The notes: a model not told the origin generated them from the sequence alone. DNA of 64,000 nt from Sminthopsis crassicaudata (GCF_048593235.1 NC_133619.1:524733644-524797643); one strand, 5' to 3'. Shown: positions 8,447-64,000, numbered from the stretch's first letter. A program made the numbers and translations.

Positions 8447-10839
8447 ATGTTCAAAAAGTGAAATCTCTTTATTTGGAATTTTGGAATTCCAGATTACATT
8501 ACATCATTTATTTGATAAATATGACCCCCCACACTCCCAACCTTGGTCTTAATTACTTTATTTTTTTAAAAATCCTACCTCAGGGTTTAGAGATCCCCCG
8601 TCTGAAAATCCCAAAACACTTATCAAAGAAAAAAAGGGTTCCAATGCTGGTAGTGCAAATGGGAGACAGTGGATTTAAAAGCCAACCTGAGCCTTTTCCT
8701 CAGGAACTGGAAGAATTTTAGAAGCCAATAAGGCTTATTAGAAAAGGAAAATTTGGAGTTTAGAAGGCAGTAGAGAGCAAAGGCAGCCCTTTTACTTCTG
8801 TATGCTCACATACAAATAAATGTGACCAAAAATAAAAACCAGGCTGCAATACAACACAACTAGAAATAAAAGCTGCAAGTAAGAGAAAAGACTCTTGGCT
8901 CACAGGACAGTACAAACTTATAGAGACTCTCCTAGCTTGTTAAGTACCTAGAATAAGCTTGGTGCAAAAAGCAATGTTGAAAAAAATGACCAAAAGACGA
9001 TAGCAGTTAGGATCCTGTTTCCTAAACAATCATAGAAAATACTGTTAAGGGATTGTCATTTTAGACTCTCCTACCTCTAAAATCTCTGCCAAGTAATAGG
9101 CCTTCCCTTCAAAAAAATTCCTGATAAAAACTGGCATTTAGTGAGTTGGCAAAGAGTACATAAACTGGAGCCAGAAGTTTGTCATATAGATGTCCAAAAA
9201 AGGTAGCACCTACTGGTTAGCCAGTGGACGGAGGGCCTTTGCTCAAAGATATATTTGCAGGTTAATTCTGTAGGCTGTAGAATATTTTTTAAAGGTTTTT
9301 AGAAATAATTCATACCTACAGAATTTTAAGTGTTATGTGGAAAAATTATATTCTATCATTGTAAAGTATCTCCCATTATTTTTCCCTCTGTTGTCTATAA
9401 TATTCCCTATGAGGTCAGGATTATTCCCACTTTAGGAATGGGGAAAACGAGGCACAAGAGGTTAAATGACTTGTTTAGGACCTCACAAATATAATCAATA
9501 ATGGTAGAGCCAGGTTAGGTTTAGTTTTTAGTTCTCAGACTCAATAACAGTTGCACAACACCTTAAGTCAGAAATATCTGTTCTAAGTGGGTCAAAGTTT
9601 AGCTATATTATATCAATTAAATTGCAGAATTTGGGAAACAGGATAGTCCACATCATCCCTGCTTCTAACTGTACCCCCAAGAAAACCCCTAGGTCCCAAT
9701 TGAACAAAATGAAATAGCCCAACTTTCTTTACTGAGAGAAGAAGAGAGGGATGGTATCAAGATATTTTGAGTCCCCTGGAGGGCTGGGAAGAAGCAAATA
9801 TGTCCCTGAGAGACCTACATTATTTTGGAGCTGACCTGACTTTCTAGTTAGAGGTGAAATCTGGAATTCATTTACAGACTTGGAGACAAAAACAAGGAAA
9901 GACAAGACTATTTAAATGATAATCAGTGTCCTGAATCCTGTTCAGAACACACAACTACACAGCATGGTTAGATCCTATTTTGACCCCATTCAAACTAGGA
10001 CCATCTTACATAGCCAAAAGAACTTCACATAAAAATTAAAATCGGGCAAAATATAACAGTACAGCTGGGGTAGGGGGAGGGGGGCTATAAAGAAAACAGG
10101 TTTATGGGCCCTACCTAATCGGGAAACGTACCAAAAAAGCCCCACTCCTTTCTGGTGACAGCTGCCTGTAGTTTTTATTGCAAAGGAAAAAGGCTTGTTC
10201 CTGTGCCCATTTCCTCAATTACACTGGGCCAGCCAGAATAGGACTAAAAATTCAATACTAAAACCAAACTGGGGGTAGATACATATCTAAGGATCAAAGG
10301 CACCAAGGCTGAGAATGAAGAGCCAGGTATGGTATAACACCTGTTGTAAGAAGGTCAGAGGAAGATTATTTGAAGTGATTAAACATTTAAGGCCCCACAA
10401 TTTCCTTGTTGAATTTTTTGAGGTCATACCATCTGTACTTGGGGCTAGTCAACCAAGCAAAGTCATCTTTCCACACTGTCCTCTTGGACCTAACACCTGC
10501 TTCCCCCAAACTGAGCACTTTAGTGGGAGCTCCCAGATTACTGGCTTCTCTTTCCTCTGATTTGGGGAATAGTGTGCATGAGACTGAGTGTGGCTAATTG
10601 CAAAAAATAATCTCTTCAAGAAACCTTCATTACAAAAACTAACAGCTTCCCCATTACTAATAAAAGGGGATCAAGTTTTAACAGGCTCAAATAGGAGAAA
10701 ATCCATTGGTTAGGATTTGGATGGCACAAAGCAGCTCCCACCCACGTGGGCTACTTGTTCTAACAAGAGAGGGTCCCTGCCACATCTGTCAAGTCCAAGG
10801 GGTCACCTGGAAAACATGGAGAATGAAGCATCCCTCCAT

Positions 10840-13800
10840 TTAGTCCTCCTCAGAGCTCTCATCCGTCTTTTCATCCGGAGCCACCTTCCAGTTTTTACGC
10901 TTGCTGGTCCTCTCTTGTACCTCACTCTTCCTTTTTGTTGGGGTGATGTGAACTTTCTGATCCTTTTTCCTTTTGGTTTTCTTGGCATCTTTTTCCTCAC
11001 TTTCCTCAGAACTACTAGATGCTGAATCATCTGGATGAGAAGAATCACTTTCCGATTCTGAGAAAGAAGCAGGTTTCTTGGGAGCCTTTTTCCTTGACTT
11101 TTTCTTTCGCTTATGTGATTGTTTCCCTTTCCTAGCACTGGAAACCTGAGTTTCTTCTGAGCATTCACTTGAGGAATCTGCAGCTCTATCTGTGGCTTCT
11201 TTTTTGCTTTTCTTTTGTTTTTTGTGTGACCGTTTTTTTTGTTTTTTTTTGTGGGATTTTTTTGACTTTTTACGTTTATGAGATTCATGAGTAGATGACT
11301 TTTCCTGGGGAGGTGTGTTTCTTCCATTAATAGCATCTTGCTGATCACTATGAATAGAAGAAAAAAAAAAAAGATAAATGTGACAGAAACAGCATTTTAC
11401 TTAAGCGTTAATATTTTGCATTTGGACATGAGAAATAGCATTGGTTAAAAGCCTAAGTAAGGAATTGAACCTAAGGCTTGGGGTTCATTTCCAATTTGCC
11501 AAAGGGGTTACTAAGTGACAAAGTGATTTATTTCCCCTTTGGGTTTTTAGTTTTCTTACCTCTAAAATAAGGGTAAAAATAACTACCCTATTTCACTGGA
11601 ATTACAAGGAATAAGTCAAAATAATTGCAGAGCCATTTGGAAACACCAAAAAGCAGTAGCCAGTAACACACTGCCTTCCCCTACTGAAGTAGTCACAAGT
11701 GTCTCTGATCATGTGGACAAAGGCAAATGATTTCACATATCCTTTATTCAAAAAACAAAAAAAACACAGCTTAGCAACTCAAAATAGATGGACTTTTCTT
11801 TTTTTTCTTAGTAAACCAACAGAACTCACCTATCTGTGTCAAATTCCTCGGGATACAGTTCTTTATATCCACTGTGACCCCATCTGTAAAATGACAGAGA
11901 AATACCCTAGATGTTCAGAAATTAAATATTAGAAAAACACTAGGACTGAAAGGAAAAAAAAAAAAGAAAATGTGAGAGTGCCAATTCATGGAATCACAGA
12001 CTACAGAGATTGGAGGATTTAAGAGATATATAGTCCAACATCTATTTTACAAATGAAAATATAAAAAGCCTAGAATTGGTGAAGAACTTACTCAAAATCT
12101 TATAGCAAGGTAGTGGTAAAGTTGAGACTTAAAACTTAAGTCTCCTAATTCTCAATCTAGTGAGCTTTTCCACTGAGACAAAGATTTACAGATAGTGGGC
12201 TCTTTTGTTCATATGAAAATTTACCAATCCTTGAATCATTGAGGAACATTAAATCACTCTTTGATATCAGTCAATGGTCTTTGATAGCACCAACTCAGGG
12301 ACATAACCCTGAAATTACTATTCATCGAGTTGCTAAAACACAAAGATGTTTTCTAAAATAGAACTCTGTATGATGAAGTAAAAGTAAGATTAGAATCAAA
12401 AGACCTACATTTGGGCCTCACCTCTTGCACTTAACAAGTATGACTTCTAACTAGTCATATCATCTTTATGGCCTGAAATTTCCTTCTCTCAAATGTAACA
12501 ATGACCTAGCTGACATACAGATCTGACACCTACACTGGTACAATGAAATTTTAAGAGCAAAATCGCTAAAACAGTAATTTTGGTCACAAACCTGTCTGGC
12601 ATGTTGGCCTCATAACTATATAGCTTTCTATTCCAGGATCGAGTCCTAAGTAAATCATCTTCAAATGTCCCAGGAATGTCTTGCTTTGTCCTCCAGTAGA
12701 CTCGATGGCTTTCTTCATCAAAACCATCACTTCGCATTCGGCTAGGACAAAAAGCAGACTCACATTTAGCTTTAGAAATAATCTGTACATGATTCAGACC
12801 AGTCCCACTGGTCAGCAATGAAAATTGACATCTACACCCAGGGAGAAAACTGTGGAAACTGAGTGTAGACTACAACATAGCATTTTCACTCTTTATGTTG
12901 TTGTTTGTTTGCATTTTTGTTTTCCTTCTCAGGTTTTTTCTTTCTAGATCTGATTTTTCTTTCTTTTTTTTTTTTTTTTAATTCCTTTTTCCAAATTATC
13001 CCCTCCCTCCCTCCACTCCCTCCCCCCGATGGCAGGTAATCCCATACATTTTACATGTGTTTCAATATAACCTAGATACAATATATGTGTGTAAATACCT
13101 TTTTCTTGTTGCACATTAATTATTAGCTTCCGAAGGTATAAGTAACCTGGGTAGATAGACAGTAGTGCTAACAATTTACATTCGCTTCCCAGTGTTCCTT
13201 CTCTGGGTATAGTTATTTCTGTCCATCATTGATCAACTGGAAGTGAGTTGCTCTTCTTTATGTTGAAGATTTCCACTTCCATCAGAATACATCCTCATAC
13301 AGTATTGTTGTTGAAGTGTATAGTGTAGATCTGATTTTTCTTGTGCAGCAAGATAATTATGTGGATATGTTTACATATATTAGATTTATCATATATTTTA
13401 ACATGTATTGGAATACCTGCCATCTAGAGGAGGGGGTGTGGGGAAGGAGGGGAAAATTTGGAACAGGTTTTGCAAAAGTCAGTGTTGAAAAATTACCCAT
13501 GCATATGTTTTATAAATAAAAATCTATAATAAAAAAATATTAAAAAATAATAATCTATACAGCTTCTCTAGAACATGATACAAGATTTACAAAACAAGCA
13601 AAGAGAAGTCTTCATTTGTTGAGAATCATCTCTATGAAAGGCTGCATCTCTTTTTATCTCTTTGGGTTGTTCTTCAACTATATAGTAGAAATAATATATT
13701 ATTTGTTCTACTCTATGCTAGTGCATAATAAAACCCATAAACAAGCAATTAGATCACTTCTAGACTACTGCCAATTTCACCTAATCTTCCCTAGAATCAA

Positions 13801-20154: not shown

Positions 20155-23100
20155 ATGGAATCATCACCCAAAGGTTTGCTTACCCAAGTGACTCAACTCT
20201 GGAATCTCCTCGATGACCTGGCTGAAAGTGACCCCAAGCGTTATGAAAAGTTCATTCAGCAGCAGCTGGAAGAAGGGGAGAAATACTGTGCTGTCCCAGA
20301 ACCACAAATCTGTCTTCAGACCAAGATCTTGGTTAGTAGAAAGGGAGCCTGAGGATGGGAAGATTTCAAATTAAATGATTCTGTGTCTCAGCGCCTTTAT
20401 TTCTACCACAAGGCGGTGTTTCAAGGGAACTATAGCTCCAGAATAAGAAACTGAATGTCAGTGCCAAAAATGGTACTATCAGGAATTTCCCAGCTAATTG
20501 AATAGGAAAAGGCCGGTGAATCAAACAAAAAAAGAAAAGAAAAAGCAGGTGCAGTCATGGGATTTTCTCCATGTGGGTTCCTTTTATCCAAGTCAAACTC
20601 CATTAGATAGCTAGGAAATAAATTAAGGAGAATCGTAAGTAGGCTTTTTTTGTACACAAGGGAAAAAAAGAGATACCTTATTATCATTTGGAATAGTATG
20701 TTGAATCACAGAATTCCAGAATACTAGAGTTGGAAGGAAGATTAAAAAGTCATCTAATTTTTGCCTGAAGTATATACAAGTACTTGTTCAATATTCAGTC
20801 TGTTTGAACATTTCCACAAGTCTAATAAAAGTCAACCATATCCCTAACATCCCCATCTTACAGATAAGGAAATTAAAGCTCAGAGGGAGTACATAGCTTT
20901 CCCACATACAGCTTAGAAGATTCAGAGACAGGGTTTGAACCCAATCTTTTTTTTATTTTTAATAATAGCTTTTTATTTTCAAAATATACGCAAAGATAGT
21001 TTTCAACATTCACCCTAGCAAGGCCTTGTGTTCCAAAATTTTTCTTCCTCCCCTTCATCTGTCTCCTCTAGACAGCAAGCAATCCAATATAGGTTTAACA
21101 TGGGCAATTTTTCTAAACAATTCTTCATTTATCATGCTGTACAAGAAAAATCATTTTTAAAAGGGGGGGAAAAAAGGAAAAAAGCCTGCAAGTAAAAAAA
21201 AAAAACGGTGAAAATACTATGTTGTGGTTCACATTCTGGCCCCACAATCCTCTTGCTAGGTGCAGATGGCTGTCTCCATCAGATTTATTGGAATTGATTG
21301 GCCTGAATTATCTCACTGTTGAAAAGAGCCACATCCATCACAGTTCATTCTTACATAATTTTATTGTTGCTACAGTATTCTCTTTGGTTCTACTCATTTC
21401 ATTTAGCATCAGATCATGTAAGTCTCTCCAGGTCTTTCTGAAATCATCCTGCTGATTGTTGAACGCAGTCTTAATGAATTCAAGTCCACTCCTAACTTGC
21501 ACAAAAGCTAGGATTCTCTTGCAGCATGCCAATTTTGATGCATTATCCACTGAAGTGCTTCTATGCCCTTTTTATATTCATAAGCATCCAGTGACTCAAC
21601 CTTCCTCTAGCTATTTTTCTTGTATACATCCTGAAGTTCTAGTGTTTTTCTGCACACAGATTACAGAAATTAAAAGAAAAAGGATCCTCCTCTAAAGAAC
21701 AGAATAATGCTTTTTTTCTTTTTTAATAATGCTTTCTTCTAAAATTTTCTCTTACCCAGTTTAGTAGAGTGAATATTTTGACCTACTTTAAAGATCCTTC
21801 ACTCCATATTTTTAGTACTTCTTGCCTCGAGAGAAGAGAATTTTCCTTAGTTGATCACATTCAAGCTACTAGACCAATTCAATTTGTTTTTTCTTTCTCA
21901 TGAATTACAAAGGCACATTATGTAAATCAATTATTCAGAATCAGCACAAGACAACGTGAGAAACACTTAGAAGGTGTTTGATAGAGAAGGAACACTGGGA
22001 ATTGAGTGTAAACTGTTTGCACTATTGTCATTCTACCCAGGTTACTTTTACCTTCGGAATCCAATTCTTAGTGTGCAACAAGAAATTTGGTTTTACACAC
22101 ATATATTGTATCTAGGATATATGGTAACACATTTAACATGTATGGGATTATCATCTAGGGGAGGGAGTAGAGGGAGGGAGGGGAAAATTTGCAAAAGTGA
22201 ATATAAGGGATAATGTAAAAAAAAAAAAATTACCCATGCATATGTACTGTCAAAAAAATTTTAATTATAAAATTAATCAAAAAAAATTTTAAAAAGGTGT
22301 TTGATAAAATGCTAGTGGCCCAGAGCTGCTTCAGTGATGTTCAGAATGAGTTATTAAAAAAAAAAAAAAAAAAGTTTTCTTTTCTAGAAACCAGAAGAAA
22401 AAGTACTATTCATCAATTTATGTCAGTGGACAAGAATCCCAGCACCCCAGTCAAAGGCAGAACCTGTATCTTTGAGTGTTGGCCATCCAGAAGATGTATC
22501 TGAGACATCAGGTACATAGAACATCAAAACTAGGCTTTATTATTTTTCTCAGCAACCACCTACCACCCAATAAATTTTAACAGCAAAAGTATATTTAAGG
22601 TAAAATTTTTATATTTCTAATAAACATATTGGAGAGTTAATCTTCAGCATTAACTGAATATATGTAAGTACTTGGGCAGATACTCATAAACATAAAGTTC
22701 TAATAGGAACTATTTTTGTACAGTAGGACTATAATAGAAATTAGACTTTTGGAGTGCCTTAGCCTAATCCAGGCTTTTGGGTTAACATTATTAAAAGTAC
22801 CATTACTTTGATATTAACAGTATTATTACAGAAAAAAAGTTTGTTAATGCAACACTGTTTGAACTGTCTAGAATCATACACAGTCATTGATGTTGCCTAC
22901 AACCCTGATGTTCTCAAGATAGCAAAAGAGGATGAAATGGAAATGGATCAACTGATTCACCTGACAATGAAATGCATTGAGGATAAATACCAATTTACTC
23001 TTTCCCACTCCTATCGTATTACGAAAACCAAGAATAAAGGAAGTCTCCAAAAGATGAAAAAGAATTTGATGGGGATCCAAACTGACCCAACAGATTTAAG

Positions 23101-23883
23101 TGAGAAAATGAAGAAAGGTAAGGAATTTTTAGTTAAAACTAATGTATGCAAATAGACAAGTGAAAATCAGAACCATCTAATTTCTAAAACATTATTATAA
23201 TGTAACCCAGTAATGTCTAACTCAAGTACACAAGCTGCAGGCCGGGCTGCTCCAACCAGATTAAATTGTAATTGGGAAATGTTGAACAAAGCAAATAAAA
23301 ATATAACAATGTTGATACACAGCCTGTATTCAAACTATTTATAGGGCTTTATTTATAGTGCTTTATTTATCCCTTTTTTGCATCAAGAATTAAAGCTTGA
23401 GCAGTTAAGAAACTGTAGAGTGAATGACCAAGATGACATTCCACAACTCTTACTGCCAAAGGACCATATTCCAAGCAAACAAGGGTGTCTAATTGAGGAA
23501 ATTTCCAGTAGTGAGATTCAAGCTGAGCTGAAAACTCCAAATTACAAGCTGACAGTTGTGAAGGATCAGAATGGGAGATCACTGAGAATTGAGATGAAAG
23601 TCGAACTTCCTGGTCTTAATTCTGTCTGTGACTGTGATCTCAGTGTTTCAAAGGTAAGATAAAGATTAACCATATGAAACCAGAAATAGATTTTATTTCT
23701 AGATTGCAAAAACAAATTTGTCCAATTGATGTGATTCTTTCATAGGATGACTTAGTGATTGAAGTCTCTGAAAAGTACCGATTACAGGTAGATCTTCCAG
23801 AATCAGTTGACACTGAGACGACTATAGCAAAATTTATCACAGAGAAAGCTACATTAATCATCACCATGCCAGTACTGCAGTAA
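20155..23883 (+). CDS. PIH1D2: PIH1 domain-containing protein 2, 5 coding exons, 316 aa
   Basis: Exons 20155-20331, 22388-22511, 22872-23117, 23388-23653, 23746-23883 (951 nt). MESSPKGLLTQVTQLWNLLDDLAESDP.../KPEEKVLFINLCQWTRIPAPQS.../YTVIDVAYNPDVL.../IEEISSSEIQ...VELPGLNSV/DDLVIEVSEKYRL...LIITMPVLQ*. Confidence 0.97.
20950..21455 (-). mobile_element. Older L1 3' end fragment in PIH1D2 intron
   Basis: Reverse-complement L1 3'UTR and ORF2 C-terminus (track ORF ...WRDLHDLMLNEMSRTK). Confidence 0.75.
21984..22293 (+). mobile_element. L1 3'UTR fragment in PIH1D2 intron
   Basis: L1 3'UTR with tail; TSD AAGGTGTTTGATA (21971-21983 and 22294-22306). Confidence 0.88.
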
Positions 23884-49614: not shown

Positions 49615-51096
49615 TGTGCCACCGACAGGCTGCACCCGGGACCGGAGCCGCTGCAGCCGCTGCCACCGTCTCCTGAGTGACCTCCCCGACCACGGTGCGG
49701 CACAGCCGTCAGCCGCGCCGTGAAGTACGGTCGCACAGTGTCGTAAAAGAGCGAGGGAAGTCCCGCCCCACCCGGGATTCCCTTCCAACTCACCCTGCCC
49801 AATTCCTCTTGCTCGGGTTGGTGAAAGGACGAGTGTGGGGCGGGGCACGGGGCGCGTGAGTGAGAAGTGAGCAATGAAGAGGCCCCGGAGCTGGGACGGG
49901 AAAGAGGAGAGAGGGAGGAGAAAAGAGAGAGAACGAGGGGGGCCAGAGAGGGGAAGAACTGAGGGAAGTGGAAAGGGAACGGAAGTAGAGGGGAAAGGGG
50001 AACCTGGCCAGGAAGGTGGGAGGGGCCGATGCCCCTAGGCTTACTCTAAACTACTCCCACTTCTCAGGTGGCCTGGGATACTGTTTGGATTTGAATTCGT
50101 TGAGCTCGGATCAGCCAACTTTCTGATGCGAAACCTGCGGGACAGAAACCTTAAGTGGCCGTTTGTACTGGGCATTCCTAGGAAAGTTTCAGGGCGCCTT
50201 GTTTGACCTTTATTTAGAAATGGAAGAAATCGTAAAAGTTGTCCCGTCCATTTTACAGAAGAACAAACTGAGACTCAGAGGATCTTGTTACCCAAGCTAC
50301 ACAGGGAATGGGAGCAGAATCAGGAATTAGACCCTTTACACCGGGACAGCTCACTGGCACTGGAGATAGTCAGAAAAGTTCAAAGTCTCAGACACTGGCT
50401 GTGGGACCCTGGGCAAGTCACTTAACCCCAACAGCCTCAACTAAAAAAATAAAGAAAAGTACCTGACCAAAATTATTTGTGGAATAATAAAATTGAGAAC
50501 TCAAATCAAAAAGCAGTGATCTTCCACAATAACAAGCTGCCTCATACCAAATATTAAAGTTTCAAGGTTTTGCAATATTCCGCAGGAACTCAAGGTTCCT
50601 GGCCTGAGACTTGGGGCCAGTGGAGAGGGAATGTGAATGAATCCTACTAAAATTGGCCAGCACGTGGTGAGCCCTTACTTTAGAGTAGTAACTCCACCTG
50701 CCTGCCTAAGGTTACTATTATGTAACCCAAAGGATTTCTACCACTGCATAGTTGATTCCATTCTGTGTCATACTAGGTTTGACTTGTTAATGAGCATAGG
50801 AGAGTCATAGGATATGGAGCCTGAAGGAACAATCGTGATGATCATTTTACAGATATAAAGGAGTGTTAAAAGTTTTCCTACTACCCAAGCAATTAAAACT
50901 TTCTTAATTAGCAAGAAGATTATAGATTCAATCAGTCATGCCTTTTGGGCCTATATATAAGCCATCTAGCAGTTACAGAATGAGAGGTAATCAAGTCTGT
51001 GGAGCAGCTGTTTGTGAGATGCTTCATAGAAAGAATAGAAAGAAGTATTTTCCCCCTTCCCCCTCCTTCTCTATGCTAGTGATAAAAGATTGGAAT

Positions 51097-56211: not shown

Positions 56212-59200
56212 CGGGGCCCGGGGTTCGGCGAGGCCCCACCTTTCTCCATCAGCGCAGCCGAACCCAGAGTGACTCTAGACGTGGCAGGTAAGCACGTTAA
56301 TTTTCTATTTGATACTGGGGCCTGTTTTTCAGTTCTATTATCCCACTCTGGTCCAACGTGCCCTTCCCCCCGTAAAGTAATGGGGATTGAAGGGAACCTC
56401 CAGAGCTGCTTGGAAACTTTTCCTCTACCTTGTAGATGTGGAGATTTGCTGTTTCCATACTCCTTTTTAATTATTCCTTCCTGTCCCATTCCTCTATTGG
56501 GTCGGGATTTAATAGAGAAGCTGGGAACCCAATTCTCTCTGCTCAAATCTCCAAGTGATATATTTGTGCTCCTTCTGAGACTGTCCCATGTTCCTTATGA
56601 AATCTGGGAGGACATAGACTCTTCCGTCTGGGATCAGGGCATTCCTGGAAGGGCAATGCATGCTATACCAGCCCTCGTTAAACTACGGGATCCTACTGTG
56701 TTCCCACATAGACGGCAGTATCCAATTAAGCAGGAGGACAGGATTGGGTTACAGCCTTTGATTGAGAAGTTCCTTAAGTTTAAACTTCTGACTCCTTGCC
56801 TATCTTCCTGTAATACTCCTATCCTTCCTGTTAAGAAAGAGAATGGGGATTATCCTATGGTACAAGATTTAAGGGCAATTAATGAAGCAGTTATCCCAAT
56901 CCATCCCATAGTACCTAATCCCTATACTATACTTACCCAGATCCCAGGGAATACTCAATGGTTTACTACACTGGACCTAAAGGATGCTTTCTTTTGTATT
57001 CCTCTGCACAAGGACTGCCAATTTCTCTTTGCCTTTGAATGGGCAAAGCCAGGTGGACTTCCTGGCCAATTAACCTCGGGGGTCCTCCTAGGTTTTAGAA
57101 ATAGTCCACATTTATTCGGGCAAGCCCTAGCGAAAGATTTGAGAGATCTTGAGCTGCCCGGCAGCAGCCTTATTCAATATGTGGATGATATCTTGCTCTG
57201 CAGTCCTCCAAGGGAGGAGTCTCTGGCAGCGACTGTAAAAACCTTGAATTTCTTAGCCTCAAGAGGTTACAGGGTCTCTCTATCCAAGGCCCACATTGCC
57301 TGCCAATCTGTCAAATACTTGGGTCACAATCTCACCCCCACCTCTCGCTCTCTAACTGAGGAGAGGAAGCAGGCTATCTTAAGTATCCCACTTCCTGTTT
57401 CTAAGAAACAGCTGAGAACCTTCTTAGGTATGGCGGGCTTCTGCAGAATCTGGATTCCAAACTTTGGGATTATTGCTAAACCCCTCTATGATTCTATTCA
57501 AGGCCCCGATAATCTCCCTCTCGAATGGGGACCTGAGCAGGCCAATGCTTTCAAAACCTTGAAAGCCAAGTTAACCTCTGCCCCTGCTCTCGCCCTGCCT
57601 GACTTACAGAAACCTTTCATTCTGTATGTAGATGAAAGGCGCGGGCAGGCTTTGGAAGTCCTTACTCAGTCTCTGGGACCAGATCCCAGGCCAGTGGCCT
57701 ATTTTTCAAAGAAGCTGGACTCAGTTTCTCTAGGATGGCCTTCCTGCCTTAGAGCAGTAGCAGCGGCAGCCCTCTTAATAAAGGAAGCCTCTAAACTTGA
57801 TGGGGGCTGTAGCCCCTTGATATTCCTTGTTTGATCTCCAACTCCATTTGGGACTTGGACTTTGATGTGGTCAAACCAGTTTGGGCTATCTGAGCTGGTT
57901 GGAGTTTTATAGCCCCCCATTCTAATCTGCTCAAACAGACCAAATGTCACAGCAGGGGAAGAGACTTCTGTCTCTACTCAAAAGATTACAAGAGAATCCT
58001 TATCTTATCTACATCACTCTCCTGAACCTCCTTAGATCAATGCATTTGATTAATTATGCTTTGTATAAAATAGGGAACCCAAAAATCTATTCTTTGCAAA
58101 ACTGGCCTTGTACCTTGCAGCCATTTTGCCCACCTACTCTCCGGTGTTTCTATTCTAATCAATAAAGACTTTGTTTCTACACAGCCTTGAGTAGCGAAAT
58201 TCATTGGCTAACTGGACCGCCTGTTGGGACTTTGGGAAGGAGAAAGAGATTATTAGACCTCCTGAAAGGAACTGACCCATCTCGGTTTAGACCCTCAGTT
58301 TACTCCTCATCAAACTGACCTTGGGGTCACCATTACAGGCTTTAATCCCCACTCTCTTACTAGATACCCCTGACTTGACTCTTAGAATTTGCCACACGCT
58401 AAATCCTGCCACCCTTCTCCATGACGTCTCTCAATCTGGAGAGATGTCCATAATTGCGAGGACATTATAGACTCCGTATACTCCAGCAGAGCTGACTTAA
58501 AGGAAATTCCTCTTGAGAACCCAGATGAGGAATGGTTCACGGACGGGTCTAGCTTCCTCAAGAATAGGGAGAGAAAGGCGGGTTATGCAGTGGCATCTCT
58601 TTATAACGCCCTGGAAGCTAAGCCATTGCCTCCTGGCACCTCAGCACAGAAATCCGAACTTATAGCATTAACCAGGGCTTTAGTACTGGGGAAGGGGATG
58701 AGAGTCTGATTCCAAATATGCTTTTCATGTTTTGCATGCTCATGGAGCTATTTGGAAAGAAAAGGGCTTGTTAACAGCAAGGAATTCTCCCATTAAACAC
58801 TCGGGAGAAATTCTACGTCTATTACAAGCTGTCCACGAACCCAAGGAGGTCTCGGTTATATTTTGCAGAGGGCACCAGAAGGGAGAGTCACTTCAGGCCA
58901 AGGGAAATAGGCTGGCAGATGCAGCTGCTAAAACGGCTGCCCTTACGCCTCTATTGACACCTTTAATTCCCCAGCTGTCTGAGTCTTTTACTCCTTCCTA
59001 TAGCACACAGGAGAAAGCTCTGGCAGAACAAAGGGGGTACAGTCTTTCTCCCTCTGGTTGGTACCAGATTCTCTCAGACCACCTTAGTTCCAGAGGTAAA
59101 TCAGTGGAAACTGATCTCTGGTCTGCACCAGGCTACGCATCTGGGGAGGAATGCCCTCCACTCTTTGGTTGAACGCATTTTCACTGGCCATAAGCTGGGG

Positions 59201-60186
59201 GAAACGATCAGGCAAGTCTGCCAGGCCTGTCCAATTTGTGCCCAGGTGAATCCTGAGGGAGCCGTTAAACCCCCACCTTTCCTGAAGCCAATTCAGAGGA
59301 GAAGCACTTACCCTGGCGAGGATGGCAACTAGATTTCACGCATATGCCCCCCTGCAGAGGTTTCAAGTTGCTTCTAGTGTTAGTGGACACATTTACTAAC
59401 TGGGTAGAAGCATTTCCTTGCAGGACTGAGAAAGCCCACTAGGTATCCAAATGCCTGTTAAACAAAATCATACCTCTCTTTAGCTTACCTGTCTTGTTAC
59501 AGAGTGATAACGGGCCTGCCTTTATTTCTCAGGTGACACAAATTGTAGCAAAAGCTCTTAAAATTACTTATGACCTTCACTCTGCCTGGAGACCCCAAGC
59601 CTTGGGGAAGGTGGAGAAAATGAACCACACCCTTAAGCGAATCCTCACTAAATTAAGTCTTGAGACTTGAGAAGATTGGATTAAAAATCTCCCTGTTGGG
59701 CTTCTTAGAATCAGAGTTGCCCCCAGAAAATCTATTAATCTCAGTTCATTTGAATTCTTGTATAGAAGGCCTTTTCTAATAACCGACATTCTTGTCGACC
59801 CTGAACAGCATCTGGTCACTCGATTTGCTTCACAACTTGGTGCAGTTCAGAAGGCCCTTTCTGAGCATCTCCCCAAACCCACAGATGCTCCTACTCAGGC
59901 CAATTCCCCTGTCGATCCCGGGAATATGGTTTATTTAAAGAGCTGGAAAGCCCAGGGGTCTGACCCCCTAGGCATGAAGTGGAAAGGCCCATACAAGGTC
60001 ATCTTAACTGCTCCAAATGCAGTTAAACTGGAAGGGTCCCCCAGCTGGACTCATATTTCTAGGATTAAACATGTTGCTTCTGTTTCAGATAACTCAGTTT
60101 ATTCCTATGAACCTATAGAAGACCTGAAGTTTCTCTTTCGCAAGACGCCTGGGAAAGACGCTGGAGAAAGAAGCTTCTCAGGCTAA
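56212..60186 (+). pseudogene. pol: ERV pro-pol (protease, RT, RNase H, integrase), interrupted
   Basis: LFDTGA protease; RT VQDLRAIN, LDLKDAFF, YVDD with the LPQG motif degraded to VLLG; RNase H WFTDGS at about 58533; integrase LDFTHMP, LQSDNGPAF, GKVEKMN, WKGPY. Open for 521 aa, then broken by a solo LTR and by stops and frameshifts. Confidence 0.96.
57798..58312 (+). mobile_element. Solo LTR of a second ERV family inserted in pol
   Basis: TGATG...CATCA termini, AACT TSD (57794-57797 and 58313-58316), TATAAAA 58064-58070, AATAAA 58161-58166. Removing it restores pol ...EASK-LTLGSPL. Confidence 0.93.
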
Positions 60187-60200
60187 TCTTCTTTCTCCTT

Positions 60201-60836
60201 ATGAGGACTCTACTCTTGATACTTTCTCTCCAGCTTTCTTGGTCCTACTCTGTGGGTCCTGGGAAATGGGGTGACAACTTCCTAGTCAGACTCGGGAACT
60301 CTGTGGGGAATGGGGGTGTCCAGGACTGCTGGGTGTGCCATCACCACTCCCAGGGTGGGTCCCACATGTGGCCTAATGCATTCTTTGCAAAGGCTCAGTT
60401 CCCACAGGCCACCAGCTCCTCAGTAGATGCCACCCCTTTGTACTAGCCAACCCCCTGGGGAACTACTCTGACTCTGCTTTCTGGCTGGGAAGGATCGCAT
60501 ATCTACCCATCACCACATCACAGAGACAGTGGTTGTAAAAGGCTGGCTGGATGAAAGACATTCAAGAGAAAATTCTTACTCCTCCCGATTCTTCCTCTGG
60601 GTGGGGCCCCTGGTTCTTAACCCCCATCCTAACTTCACTTTTACTCATATTTGGTCCTTGTATTTTCAGACTACTGGTGGGAGTCATTTCTTTTAGGCTT
60701 CAGGCTTCGAACTTTCAGCTGCTTCTACAGCCTGCAGACTCTGGGACTCAAGGAAACACACACCCTCTTAGACTCAGCTGCTGCCATCTTCAGATCCCGT
60801 GTTTCCCTTCCTGACATGGACCCCCAAATGAACTAG
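60201..60836 (+). pseudogene. env: ERV env remnant with a large internal deletion
   Basis: Hydrophobic signal MRTLLLILSLQLSWS and SU-type DCWVC motif, joined within about 350 nt to the TM end (LLLIFGPCIFRLLVGVISFRLQ). No fusion peptide or immunosuppressive domain is visible. Confidence 0.85.
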
Positions 60837-60939
60837 GGACATCTCTATGACTATTTCCAGCTTAAAGAAGCTACAGAAGATGAGACCTTCGTCCCTTTTC
60901 CCCAAAAGAATTTGGTGGGACTTGTCTCAGGGGGGAATC

Positions 60940-61336
60940 TGATGGGAATCTGACAAGGGAAACTGAGGCTGGAAACCCCAAAAAGAGTCATTTCCCACGT
61001 TATCTTGACCTAGAAGCCAGTCCAACCCCACCTCTGTTAAGTACCTCCACTTAAGCTCTATACAATTTGAACTATCACTAATCAAACTTTCTATATCTTT
61101 ACTGAAGCCTATTCAAACCCAATAGCTCTGTATTGTCTCAAATCATATATATGATGGGGAAGAATGGGCAGATGAGCAGAATGGACAGAACTCTTAATTC
61201 CATCAAAGAGTTCTGCTCCATTTGAGATCTCTTGATGATTTATAATAAACTTAAACTTCTACTTTTACTTATAATTTAGTAAATTATTTTACTTCACCTG
61301 CGCCTTGTCTCATCAAAAGCCTGCACATCCCCAACA
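60940..61336 (+). mobile_element. 3' LTR (397 bp)
   Basis: TGATGGGAATC...CCCCAACA directly after the polypurine tract; AATAAA 61244-61249. Confidence 0.96.
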
Positions 61337-64000
61337 GAATCATAGTATCTTTTCCCTTGAAGGGAGAAGAGTCTGGATATATCTTTTTTTTCCCAGCTCT
61401 CTTCAACTCAATCTGCCTCCTCCATGAGCAGAGTATTGAGTAATCTGTACCAGTAGAAAGAGAATTCCCTAAAATTGGCCTTTTGAGCCAAAGGTTACTC
61501 TAGCCATGTATTTATTTACTTTTCCTGAAAAAGGCACCCCACCCAGAAAGTAGAGTTTGACGCCCAGCAGAGGAAGCAGAGACACCCTTTTAAGTATAGA
61601 TATGTAGATACAGCCCTCTAGGGAGGAAGCAACTAAGGAAATTTAACTCAAAGAATAGAGAAAAGAATTCTCCAAAGAGTGAAAAGAAAGAAAAAATCTC
61701 GCACTAGATAACAGGGGTTGGGCCACATTGAGGAATGTATGAGGAGATAAAGGACTTCCCTGCTCAGCAGTTCTAGTAAACCAAAGTCAGATTGAATAAA
61801 ACCAATCTTGGATCTGATGTTTTGTTAGCCTAAACACTGGCAGGTGAGCTGTGCTTTAGAAAAATGTAAATTATTATTGTTATGGAGAACCACTCAAGAT
61901 AGACTCTAATACTTGGATACCCAGAGTTATATTTAGTTATATTAATTATATAGCAGTGGGTTATATAGTTACATTCAGTTTGGCAAATGGCTGAATGAAG
62001 AGGCAAGTCAGTTAACTTCTCCATCATTTTCTTCATCTACCAAAAAAAAAAAAAAAAATGATGTGAAGGAGTTTTCTTATAACCTTTAAACAAGTCAAGA
62101 ACTTCTTCAACTTTAGAGAATTACAGAGAGTTGGCCATTAGGAGGAAAAAAACTCATCACCAGCATACCATATGATAAAAATGGGTATATAATTTAGACA
62201 TAAACAGTGACAAATTAGAACAGGGAGTGTATGTGTCTCACATTGGAAAAAATGCTTTGTAACTACTTCTGTTTTTTGCTATCCTTTTTGAGTAAATGCC
62301 CTCTCTGAACCTGCTAGCTGGCTGTAAGGGGAACATACCAGTGGGAGCTTGATGAGCTGGTATTTGGGATAATAACCATTTACGAGAATGTTTCTAGAAT
62401 CATGGGAGATGTAATAGCCATCTGTGGAGAATCCAACCTGCCAATGGACTCCAGGGAAAGTTCAAACATCTGGCATCCAAAACCCTTCATAACTTGGTTT
62501 CCTTTCTATTAATCACTCCCATGCACAGGATCACAGAGGAAAGCAGGATTTTAGAAACCACCTCATCCAATTCTTATCTGACCCAGAATATCCTCTTTAA
62601 CATACAAGTGGTCCTCTAGCTGGAAGAGTTCAAGTGAAGAGGAACACACTTCCTCCAGAGGCAACGGTTTCATTTTTGGAAGTTTTCCCTTAAGCAAAAA
62701 TTTGCTCCCCAAAATTTATATCCATTGTTCCTAGTTCTGCCCTCTGATGGCAAGCAAAACAAATTAATTCCTCTTCCAGAAGACAGCTTTAAGAACTTGA
62801 AGATAGCTCTCATGTCCTCTACGTTCTAGCCAAACTATTTAACTCTGTTACCTGAACATGTTATTATATCTGCATGCTTTTGTTCTGACTGTTCTGTCCA
62901 CCAGGGATGGAATGGGATGCTCTTCCTCCTTTGTCTATTGGATTCCTATGCAACACAGAATATCACAGTTGTAAAGTATCTCAAATATTACAACTTGTAA
63001 TTTGAAGTTATGTAGAACTTTTAGGGTTGTAAAGCACCATCCTCTCTCATGTCTGGGGTAGGATCCAAACCCAGGTCTCCTGACCCTAATTTTGTCATGC
63101 ACTTGATTATAATAAGTAATGTTTCTACACTCTAAGTTAAATTCTTACACCTAACTATTATCTTCTGCAAGGCCTAGCATAGTGCTTAGCAAATAGTAAA
63201 TACGAGGCTATTAAATGTTTATTAGTGGTAATCGTGGGGAATTGACATATTTCCCCATTACCATGTGGTAGAAGTTCTGTTTGTAGTTTATTTTAGAAGA
63301 GCTGAAGACACACCACAAAAGTGTGCTTCAATGCTTTTATGATCTCATTGATGTCCTTCCTCCCAAAATGCTCAAGATCTGTGCATATCTTCTGTCATAT
63401 TGTGGTTCCTATACTCCCCTAAATGCTCCACAAGTATTAAAAATCCCTTTAGAGGTTTCCTACACCACATGTAGGAGATACTCCTCTAAACCTTTTATCT
63501 TTACATGGATACTAATGCATTATTTGATTACCTACCTCATAGTTTATTCTCAATATATTCGGTGTCTATGGGCCCACATCCTTTGATCATACAGTTCCTG
63601 CATGGTATCTTTCATATGGCAATTCCTATGTGAAAATAATTGTTGGAAATATGCTACAGCCTATTTATAACTACCATATTGTTCTCCATTACCCTTTGGT
63701 AAGAATTTAAACCACAATTGCCATATTAATCCTGAGTGGCAACAAGTTTTCTAAAAGTATATCACTCCTCTAGCAAATGGAAGTAAAAATGGTCCCTGGG
63801 AAACTTCTGAAATTCTACATAATGAAGTTATAACTTTGTGAATCTCAGGAAAATTAATCCTTTAAGTTTTAGTGTAGTCAGATTTTTTTAAAATGATATA
63901 TTTTTCCTTTGGGGATTTATGCCATATATATGATGGCTCATTATATTCATCAAGAAAGACATTATAAGAAATACAAGTAGATTAACAAATGATTATACTA

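What the first reader, a model, noticed from the sequence alone, without database searches (positions are those of the whole stretch)
51093..61340. Three-layer retroelement nest: a complete, probably uncharacterised marsupial class I provirus hit by an L1 and a second ERV
Every junction has its own TSD: provirus GAAT, L1 17 bp, solo LTR AACT. The history can be reconstructed: provirus integration came first, followed, in unknown order, by L1 insertion into the 5' LTR and by integration of a second retrovirus in pol that collapsed to a solo LTR. The gag (two CCHC knuckles, matrix pattern) resembles the HERV-H/W/9 side of class I as I recall it. Whether the family is already named cannot be determined without a search.
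Basis: partly seen in the sequence, partly recalled or inferred. Interest (0 to 1): 0.7.

Follow-up and report, generated by a model that had tools for sequence, protein, structure and literature searches.

The report
Nested insertions in defective marsupial provirus
This is a broken retroviral copy, closely related to the published marsupial group MEGrv 2, into which a LINE-1 and a second retroviral end-piece later inserted; it lacks the same envelope and polymerase pieces as several other copies in the genome, so it was likely spread by a helper virus, and the nesting itself is ordinary.

Summary
The nest is real. The provirus (51097-61336, TSD GAAT), the antisense 5'-truncated L1 in its 5' LTR (17-bp TSD) and the 515-bp solo LTR in pol (TSD AACT) all check out, and sibling copies show both nested sites empty. 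It is not complete: env lacks 938 nt and pol 72 nt. It is not uncharacterised: its proteins match the published MEGrv 2 representative (by eye 190/207 residues in Pol, 63/79 in Env), though the LTRs differ. At least 18 dispersed copies share the env deletion and 4 share the pol deletion too, and the env-deleted copies are not one clade on pol (p-AU 0.022). The likely mechanism is helper-dependent copying with recombination, as proposed for HERV-K(HML-2) type 1. The solo LTR's traceable relatives are RT-less, gag-only elements with MEGrv 2-type gag, so the 'second retrovirus' is likely a non-autonomous relative. Nesting is common here: 3 of 26 other loci hold an L1. The order of L1 and solo LTR is unresolved. 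The scan's index showed no look-alike. Dfam/Repbase could not be searched.

The parts
51093..51096 (+). 5' copy of the provirus TSD (GAAT)
51097..51426 (+). 5' LTR, left piece (U3 and start of R); U3 shortened between short direct repeats relative to a 522-bp family LTR
51410..51426 (+). L1 TSD, first copy (17 bp; its last T's merge with the L1 tail)
51427..54163 (-). 5'-truncated L1 (about 2.74 kb: 3' part of ORF2, 3' UTR, poly(A)), antisense to the provirus, broken
54164..54180 (+). L1 TSD, second copy
54181..54275 (+). 5' LTR, right piece (AATAAA, U5, ...CA end)
54280..54297 (+). Primer-binding site, 18 nt complementary to the 3' end of tRNA-Ile(AAT) with its CCA
   Evidence: 4 of 4 loci scanned named tRNA-Ile; 13 pattern matches
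54565..56211 (+). gag, broken in its 5' half; CA (Gag_p30) and two CCHC knuckles; TGA stop in frame with pro-pol
56212..57797 (+). pro and RT part of pol; open frame of 528 codons up to the solo LTR
57794..57797 (+). solo-LTR TSD, first copy (AACT)
57798..58312 (+). Solo LTR of a second family (515 bp, same orientation, TATAAA 58064, AATAAA 58161); no significant similarity to the host LTR
58313..58316 (+). solo-LTR TSD, second copy
58317..60186 (+). 3' pol (connection, RNase H, integrase with GPY motif), several frame breaks; 72-nt deletion junction near 58350 shared with L113, L114 and (70 nt) L067
60201..60860 (+). env remnant: signal peptide and start of SU (CWVC), then the TM tail; 938-nt deletion at 60536/60537 removes the furin site, ISD and CX6CC
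60929..60937 (+). polypurine tract
   Evidence: sequence; same context in L003 and L013
60940..61336 (+). 3' LTR (397 bp; U3 shortened by a different repeat-bounded deletion than the 5' LTR)
61337..61340 (+). 3' copy of the provirus TSD (GAAT)

Best explanation
The locus is a broken class I provirus closely matching the published MEGrv 2 group, carrying an antisense L1 in its 5' LTR and a solo LTR in pol, each with its own TSD; it shares a 938-nt env deletion and a 72-nt pol deletion with other dispersed copies, so it was likely defective when it integrated and was likely copied by a helper virus. Shown: structure, TSDs, empty sites in siblings, shared deletion junctions at different genomic sites, tRNA-Ile PBS. 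Inferred: (1) the doubly deleted RNA was co-packaged with env-bearing relatives, reverse-transcribed and integrated with their proteins, and recombined with them; (2) an L1 inserted by target-primed reverse transcription at an A/T-rich site just before the LTR's AATAAA; (3) a non-autonomous, RT-less relative of the same clade integrated into pol and collapsed to a solo LTR by LTR-LTR recombination; (4) the locus has decayed neutrally since and has no function. The order of (2) and (3) is unresolved.
For: Family: by-eye comparison of window ORFs with the MEGrv 2 record: 190 of 207 residues from QYVDD to the solo LTR (length), 63 of 79 in the Env N-terminus, 103 of 120 nt in one RT stretch with all 17 differences synonymous; the best database proteins reach only about 45-58%. 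Env deletion: 17 exact junction matches on six contigs including the window plus L074; different TSDs and flanks. Pol deletion: same junction in 4 of 19 copies that cover the region, all four env-deleted, no microhomology at the junction. Recombination: env-deleted copies are not one clade on pol (14 against 5 rows, p-AU 0.022; L112 with env-bearing L061 at 100/99). Variants shared between env-deleted copies are depleted of replacements in PR+RT (40 syn/31 non against 69/145 private, Fisher p 0.0004) and also in the env remnants (10/8 against 21/61, p 0.022), as expected if they came in from replicating env-bearing genomes. Second family: 21 elements with related LTRs (75-85% identity): gag in 19, protease in 9, RT in 0, env pieces in 0. 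Nesting base rate: L1 inside 3 of 26 other independent family-1 loci; TSD-flanked solo LTRs inside 2 of 21 family-2 elements.
Against: The MEGrv 2 comparison is by eye on three stretches, and the LTRs differ completely. Non-monophyly rests mainly on one starred pair 9 Mb apart on one contig, which gene conversion could explain; on the env-region tree one origin is not ruled out. Gag and RNase H/integrase did not show a significant shared-against-private contrast (p 0.33 and 0.10). Purifying selection on pol also fits copying in cis. That the 24-codon pol deletion kills Pol is inferred, not tested; its length keeps the frame in three of the four copies. The solo LTR's own subfamily (95-97% identical copies) was found only as solo LTRs: 19 of 19 other loci, and a PPT-anchored pattern found 0, so its internal region is inferred from more distant relatives.
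Confidence: 0.72

Rival explanations
1. Same nest and family, but the env-deleted lineage spread by retrotransposition in cis with its own Gag and Pol, like IAP or MEBrv 3.
For: At least 18 dispersed copies share one env deletion; shared PR+RT variants have omega 0.25; env loss with amplification is described in dasyurids for MEBrv 3 (PMC11334065, results read).
Against: Not one clade on pol (p-AU 0.022); env remnants also look purified; a genome with a further 24-codon pol deletion reached four sites; amplification is modest.
Confidence: 0.17
2. The shared deletions spread after integration, by gene conversion or ectopic recombination between resident proviruses, or arose repeatedly.
For: L061 and L112 lie on one contig 9 Mb apart; the family's U3 does suffer repeated deletions between short repeats.
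Against: The env junction recurs at 17 sites on six contigs with different flanks; the pol junction has no microhomology; LTR pairs differ by 2-4% and keep matching TSDs.
Confidence: 0.06
3. The provirus was retained because its 5' LTR, head to head with the DLAT promoter about 1.5 kb away, acts as a regulatory element, and the L1 tuned it.
For: It sits between the DLAT start codon (49614, - strand; lipoyl exons) and a DIX-domain exon 5.6 kb beyond the window.
Against: No expression or chromatin evidence was obtained; LTR-LTR divergence (3.9%) is like that of siblings (2.3-4.4%), so no sign of constraint; U3 has lost repeats.
Confidence: 0.05

Closest known systems
MEGrv 2 (marsupial endogenous gammaretrovirus 2, representative dv6410; Harding et al. 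2024, PMC11334065: main text parts 1-5 of 7 and supplement parts 1, 9, 10 of 12 read)
   Same: Gene order, near-identical MA start, CA, PR, RT, IN and Env N- and C-terminal pieces (by eye 92% over 207 Pol residues, 80% over 79 Env residues, 86% over 120 nt); TGA between gag and pol in frame; PBS beginning TGGTGGCCCG.
   Different: Unrelated-looking LTR; full 18-nt tRNA-Ile PBS after a 4-nt spacer; two intact knuckles where the representative has one; shared env and pol deletions, which the parts of the paper I read do not mention. The representative's LTR end and PBS context match the solo LTR's family better than the host provirus.
HERV-K(HML-2) type 1 proviruses (Subramanian et al. 2011, PMC3228705, passages)
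   Same: One shared env-region deletion in many dispersed copies that are not monophyletic, explained by rescue by, and recombination with, env-bearing genomes.
   Different: Class II against class I; 292 nt against 938 nt; here a sub-set also shares a pol deletion. An analogy of mechanism, not membership.
HERV-H / ERV-Fc two-knuckle gamma-like ERVs (PMC1224870, PMC4724089, PMC4798954, passages)
   Same: Two NC zinc knuckles, GPY motif in the integrase C-terminus, non-MLV class I position.
   Different: PBS is Ile, not His or Phe; no named reference could be put in the tree; RT identity to all database proteins is under 60%.
Dasyurid L1 (L1-1_SH lineage; Gallus et al. 2015, PMC4408412, passages)
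   Same: 5'-truncated, TSD-flanked, broken ORF2; nesting is frequent in these genomes (303 of 384 long devil L1s held nested insertions).
   Different: Subfamily not assigned here; nearest copies in this genome differ by 2.9-3.6%.

Membership tests
Class I (gamma-like) ERV | Pol closest to gammaretroviruses | tested here: met
   Best solved structures are XMRV/MLV RT at E 1e-113, against 1e-41 for foamy and 5e-13 for the next retroviral polymerase; Gag_p30 and MLVIN_C
Class I (gamma-like) ERV | gag and pro-pol in one frame across a stop; GPY/F motif | tested here: met
   TGA at 56209-56211 followed in frame by pro-pol; WKGPY in the IN C-terminus
Class I (gamma-like) ERV | 4-bp TSD, TG...CA LTRs, PBS, PPT | tested here: met
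MEGrv 2 clade | pol groups with the MEGrv 2 representative in a tree (the paper's criterion) | not testable with these tools
   The supplement's sequence could be read but not loaded into an aligner; no tree with it was made
MEGrv 2 clade | High sequence identity to the representative (paper clusters at >80% nt) | tested here: met
   By eye only: 103/120 nt, 190/207 aa in Pol, 63/79 aa in Env. MEGrv 1 3' pol and env read look unlike; the MEGrv 3 record was not read
MEGrv 2 representative's own LTR family | Same LTR | tested here: not met
   Termini and body differ by eye; the paper does not define the clade by LTR, so this marks a separate lineage inside it
Complete provirus | Full-length gag, pol and env | tested here: not met
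   938-nt env deletion without furin site, ISD or CX6CC; 72-nt pol deletion; frame breaks
HERV-H/ERV-Fc group | Two NC zinc knuckles | tested here: met
HERV-H/ERV-Fc group | PBS for tRNA-His or tRNA-Phe | tested here: not met
   PBS is tRNA-Ile(AAT)
HERV-H/W/9 or HERV-I/IP supergroups | RT groups with named references | tested here: inconclusive
   RT falls in a 12-row set of unnamed mammalian and unlabelled sequences (SH-aLRT 95, quick tree), outside the PERV/MLV clade; cluster look-up gave no family names
L1 insertion by TPRT | Poly(A) tail, 7-20 bp TSD, 5' truncation, A/T-rich nick site | tested here: met
   (other L1 copies run on past the 5' junction; 1 nt of microhomology)
Named Dfam/Repbase family | Full-length match to a library consensus | not testable with these tools
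   No repeat library is offered

The most novel reading that the evidence does not exclude
MEGrv 2 in this lineage was a helper-parasite system: env-bearing viruses carried an env-deleted (partly also pol-deleted) lineage that recombined with them, and a large RT-less gag-only family, which inserts into its own relatives more often than chance; this locus records all of them. It would be a marsupial class I counterpart of HERV-K type 1 rescue.
Probability: 0.3. Interest if true: 0.5.

Novelty: new member of a known kind. Interest (0 to 1): 0.3.

Why it matters
As a locus it matters little: nested insertions in old proviruses are common and this one is dead. What is useful is the family-level picture: a described marsupial clade (MEGrv 2) has, in this genome, a separate LTR lineage with at least 18 copies sharing one env deletion, and an RT-less companion family with thousands of LTRs. 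That gives a countable natural test of copying in trans against in cis in a marsupial, and three TSD-defined presence/absence markers next to DLAT for dasyurid phylogeny.

Tried and rejected
Order of L1 and solo LTR by distance to nearest copy: 27/920 against 10/512, Fisher p 0.30, and only 40 candidates were scored per search; unresolved. Contigs of two organism-A samples reach only 24-26 letters into the 3' LTR, under the tool's 31-letter rule, so fixation is not shown. Expression: no RNA holder listed. Targeting of the solo-LTR subfamily to relatives: 1 of 19 other copies has MEGrv 2-type coding sequence nearby, but only on one side, so no clear support. An apparent 5-bp TSD around the 3' LTR alone is rejected, because the left match is the family's PPT end. 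Atlas search gave no result. Rfam: 0 matches in 50000-64000; ARAGORN: 0 tRNAs in the window. Literature searches for a HERV-I-like marsupial element returned nothing relevant; 'MEGrv' occurs in 2 papers of the library (the second seen as a listing only); one search listed no other dunnart ERV study. The scan's own index: no look-alike by sequence. L074's whole-LTR value (0.22) was dropped because its 5' LTR start was not found. Rows left out of the pol tree for under 70% coverage: L074, L110, L111, L115, L121.

Full report
Observation. A provirus runs from 51097 to 61336 between two copies of GAAT. Its 5' LTR is split by a 2.74-kb L1 on the minus strand, bounded by a 17-bp duplication that occurs once in the 3' LTR and was found in 28 of 29 other family LTR loci. 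A 515-bp LTR without significant similarity to the host LTR sits in pol between two copies of AACT; 14 of 16 sibling loci read through that site without it and 2 lack the region. Both LTR families make 4-bp TSDs elsewhere (19 of 29 and 13 of 19 other loci with an exact 4-mer), so the short TSDs are not chance. First-look candidates in the 3.24-Gb own genome number 547 for the host LTR, 1843 for the solo LTR and 649 for the RT region; only 40 were scored each time and these are not copy numbers.

Anatomy. An 18-nt PBS at 54280-54297 is complementary to tRNA-Ile(AAT). Gag has a p30 domain and two CCHC knuckles and ends in a TGA in frame with pro-pol; pol has protease, RT, RNase H and integrase with the GPY motif. 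The provirus is not complete. Against a sibling that holds the segment, env lacks 938 nt at 60536/60537, which takes out the furin site, ISD and CX6CC motif. Pol lacks 72 nt just right of the solo LTR. Gag, 3' pol and env have frame breaks. Each LTR has lost part of U3 between short direct repeats, with different endpoints.

Family. Database proteins match at only about 45-58%. In a quick RT tree the element lies outside the PERV/MLV clade, in a 12-row set of unnamed sequences; a cluster look-up gave no family names. The supplement of Harding et al. 2024 (PMC11334065) gives the answer: the MEGrv 2 representative has nearly the same Gag start, Pol and Env. By eye I counted 17 differences in 207 Pol residues, 16 in 79 Env residues, and 17 in 120 nt of RT, all synonymous. 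That pattern fits sister viral lineages. The LTRs differ, so this is a separate LTR lineage inside or next to MEGrv 2. No tree with the representative could be made, the MEGrv 3 record was not read, and no repeat library was available. The host is likely a dasyurid; this is inferred from that match and the genome size, and an unchecked scan note calls it a dunnart.

How it spread. The env junction occurs exactly at 17 sites on six contigs, the window included, and with mismatches in L074; flanks and TSDs differ. The pol deletion has the same junction in 4 of 19 copies that cover the region (window, L113, L114; 70 nt in L067), all env-deleted, with no microhomology. So this genome was likely defective before it integrated. 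The deleted codons follow the stretch that aligns to the connection region of XMRV RT; that this ruins Pol is inferred. On pol, env-deleted copies are rejected as one clade (14 against 5 rows, p-AU 0.022), mainly through one starred pair, while the env-region tree does not rule out one origin. Non-CpG variants shared among the 18 env-deleted copies show omega 0.25 in PR+RT against 0.67 for private ones (p 0.0004) and 0.26 against 0.93 in the env remnants (p 0.022); gag (p 0.33) and RNase H/integrase (p 0.10) show no significant contrast. Rescue by, and recombination with, env-bearing relatives explains these results best, as argued for HERV-K(HML-2) type 1 (PMC3228705, passages; the three copying modes are set out in PMC8922424, passages). 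Copying in cis and gene conversion remain rivals.

The second element. Its 19 closest other copies (95-97%) are all solo LTRs. Elements with related LTRs (75-85%) and a PBS context like MEGrv 2's are 3-6 kb long: of 21 examined (21 of 24 pattern hits, not counting one chance match), 19 have MEGrv 2-type gag, 9 protease, none RT or env pieces. The insert is therefore likely a non-autonomous relative of the host; its exact subfamily was not found with an internal region.

Is the nest unusual? No. An L1 lies inside 3 of 26 other independent family-1 loci (L068, L113 and one segmentally duplicated locus), a fourth has an unidentified insert, and 2 of 21 family-2 elements hold a TSD-flanked solo LTR. 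In the devil, 303 of 384 long L1s carry nested insertions (PMC4408412, passages). With hundreds of proviral loci, a few doubly hit ones are expected. The rate of LTR-in-relative nesting may exceed chance, but the family size is not known well enough to say.

Age and order. The two LTRs differ at 15 of 383 aligned sites (3.9%, interval 2.2-6.4%), like four siblings (2.3-4.4%). In a run of another species (organism C) one contig follows the 3' flank from 61359 with 39 differences in about 490 letters and has 658 letters before it that do not fit the LTR; neither LTR family has depth in that run, while the internal region has. This fits an empty site and an insertion about half as old as that split, but the upstream letters were not shown. 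L1 and solo LTR differ from their nearest scored copies by 2.9% and 2.0% (p 0.30), so their order stays open.

Context. The provirus lies about 1.5 kb upstream of, and head to head with, DLAT (lipoyl exons; the first exon is named from recall), with a DIX-domain exon 5.6 kb past the window end. No evidence for a regulatory role was obtained.

Verdict. Observation confirmed; reading partly supported. A dead, helper-dependent member of a described clade with ordinary nesting. New member of a known kind; interest 0.3. The env- and pol-deleted sub-lineage and the RT-less companion family did not appear in the parts of PMC11334065 that I read or in the listings; repeat libraries, the paper's GitHub files and unread supplement parts may name them.

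Noticed in passing
G000 C5:244-249 Mb, C6:126-137 Mb, C3:202-206 Mb, C1:454-457 Mb (L069-L073, L076): One truncated family-1 provirus with the same L1 insertion in gag is repeated dozens of times in large clusters, which points to segmental duplication of a long unit.
   Followed up: partly
window 48817-49614 and 41067-41489 (- strand): DLAT exons; the provirus starts 1.5 kb upstream of its start codon, head to head, in the gap towards a DIX-domain gene.
   Followed up: partly
window 10803-11400 (-) and 22763-23155 (+): Open frames that look like NKAPD1 and PIH1D2 exons (names recalled, not tested), in the gene order known around DLAT.
   Followed up: no
L081, L090-L109: An RT-less, gag(-pro)-only family of 3-6 kb with MEGrv 2-type gag and several LTR subfamilies; L090 and L101 each hold an inverted related solo LTR with a 4-bp TSD.
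   Followed up: partly
L090 (G000 C1:49.35 Mb): Gag and an inverted LTR are repeated again behind the 3' LTR, a rearranged or tandem structure.
   Followed up: no
L063 6731-8499: A 1.77-kb insert in gag that matches neither the L1 nor either LTR family tested.
   Followed up: no
L048-L050 (G000 C5:266-272 Mb): The same solo LTR with the same flanks recurs several times: another segmentally duplicated unit.
   Followed up: no
G000 C4:440.97-441.10 Mb: Nine matches to a tRNA-Ile 3' end within 130 kb, likely a tRNA gene cluster.
   Followed up: no
window about 36000-46000: A-rich stretch with a second L1 ORF2 piece (37038-37772, + strand) very like the nested L1, inside DLAT introns.
   Followed up: no
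family-1 LTR U3 (window 51097-51260, 60940-61070; L002, L003, L025): U3 is repeatedly shortened between three copies of a short direct repeat; LTR length ranges from 397 to 527 bp.
   Followed up: partly
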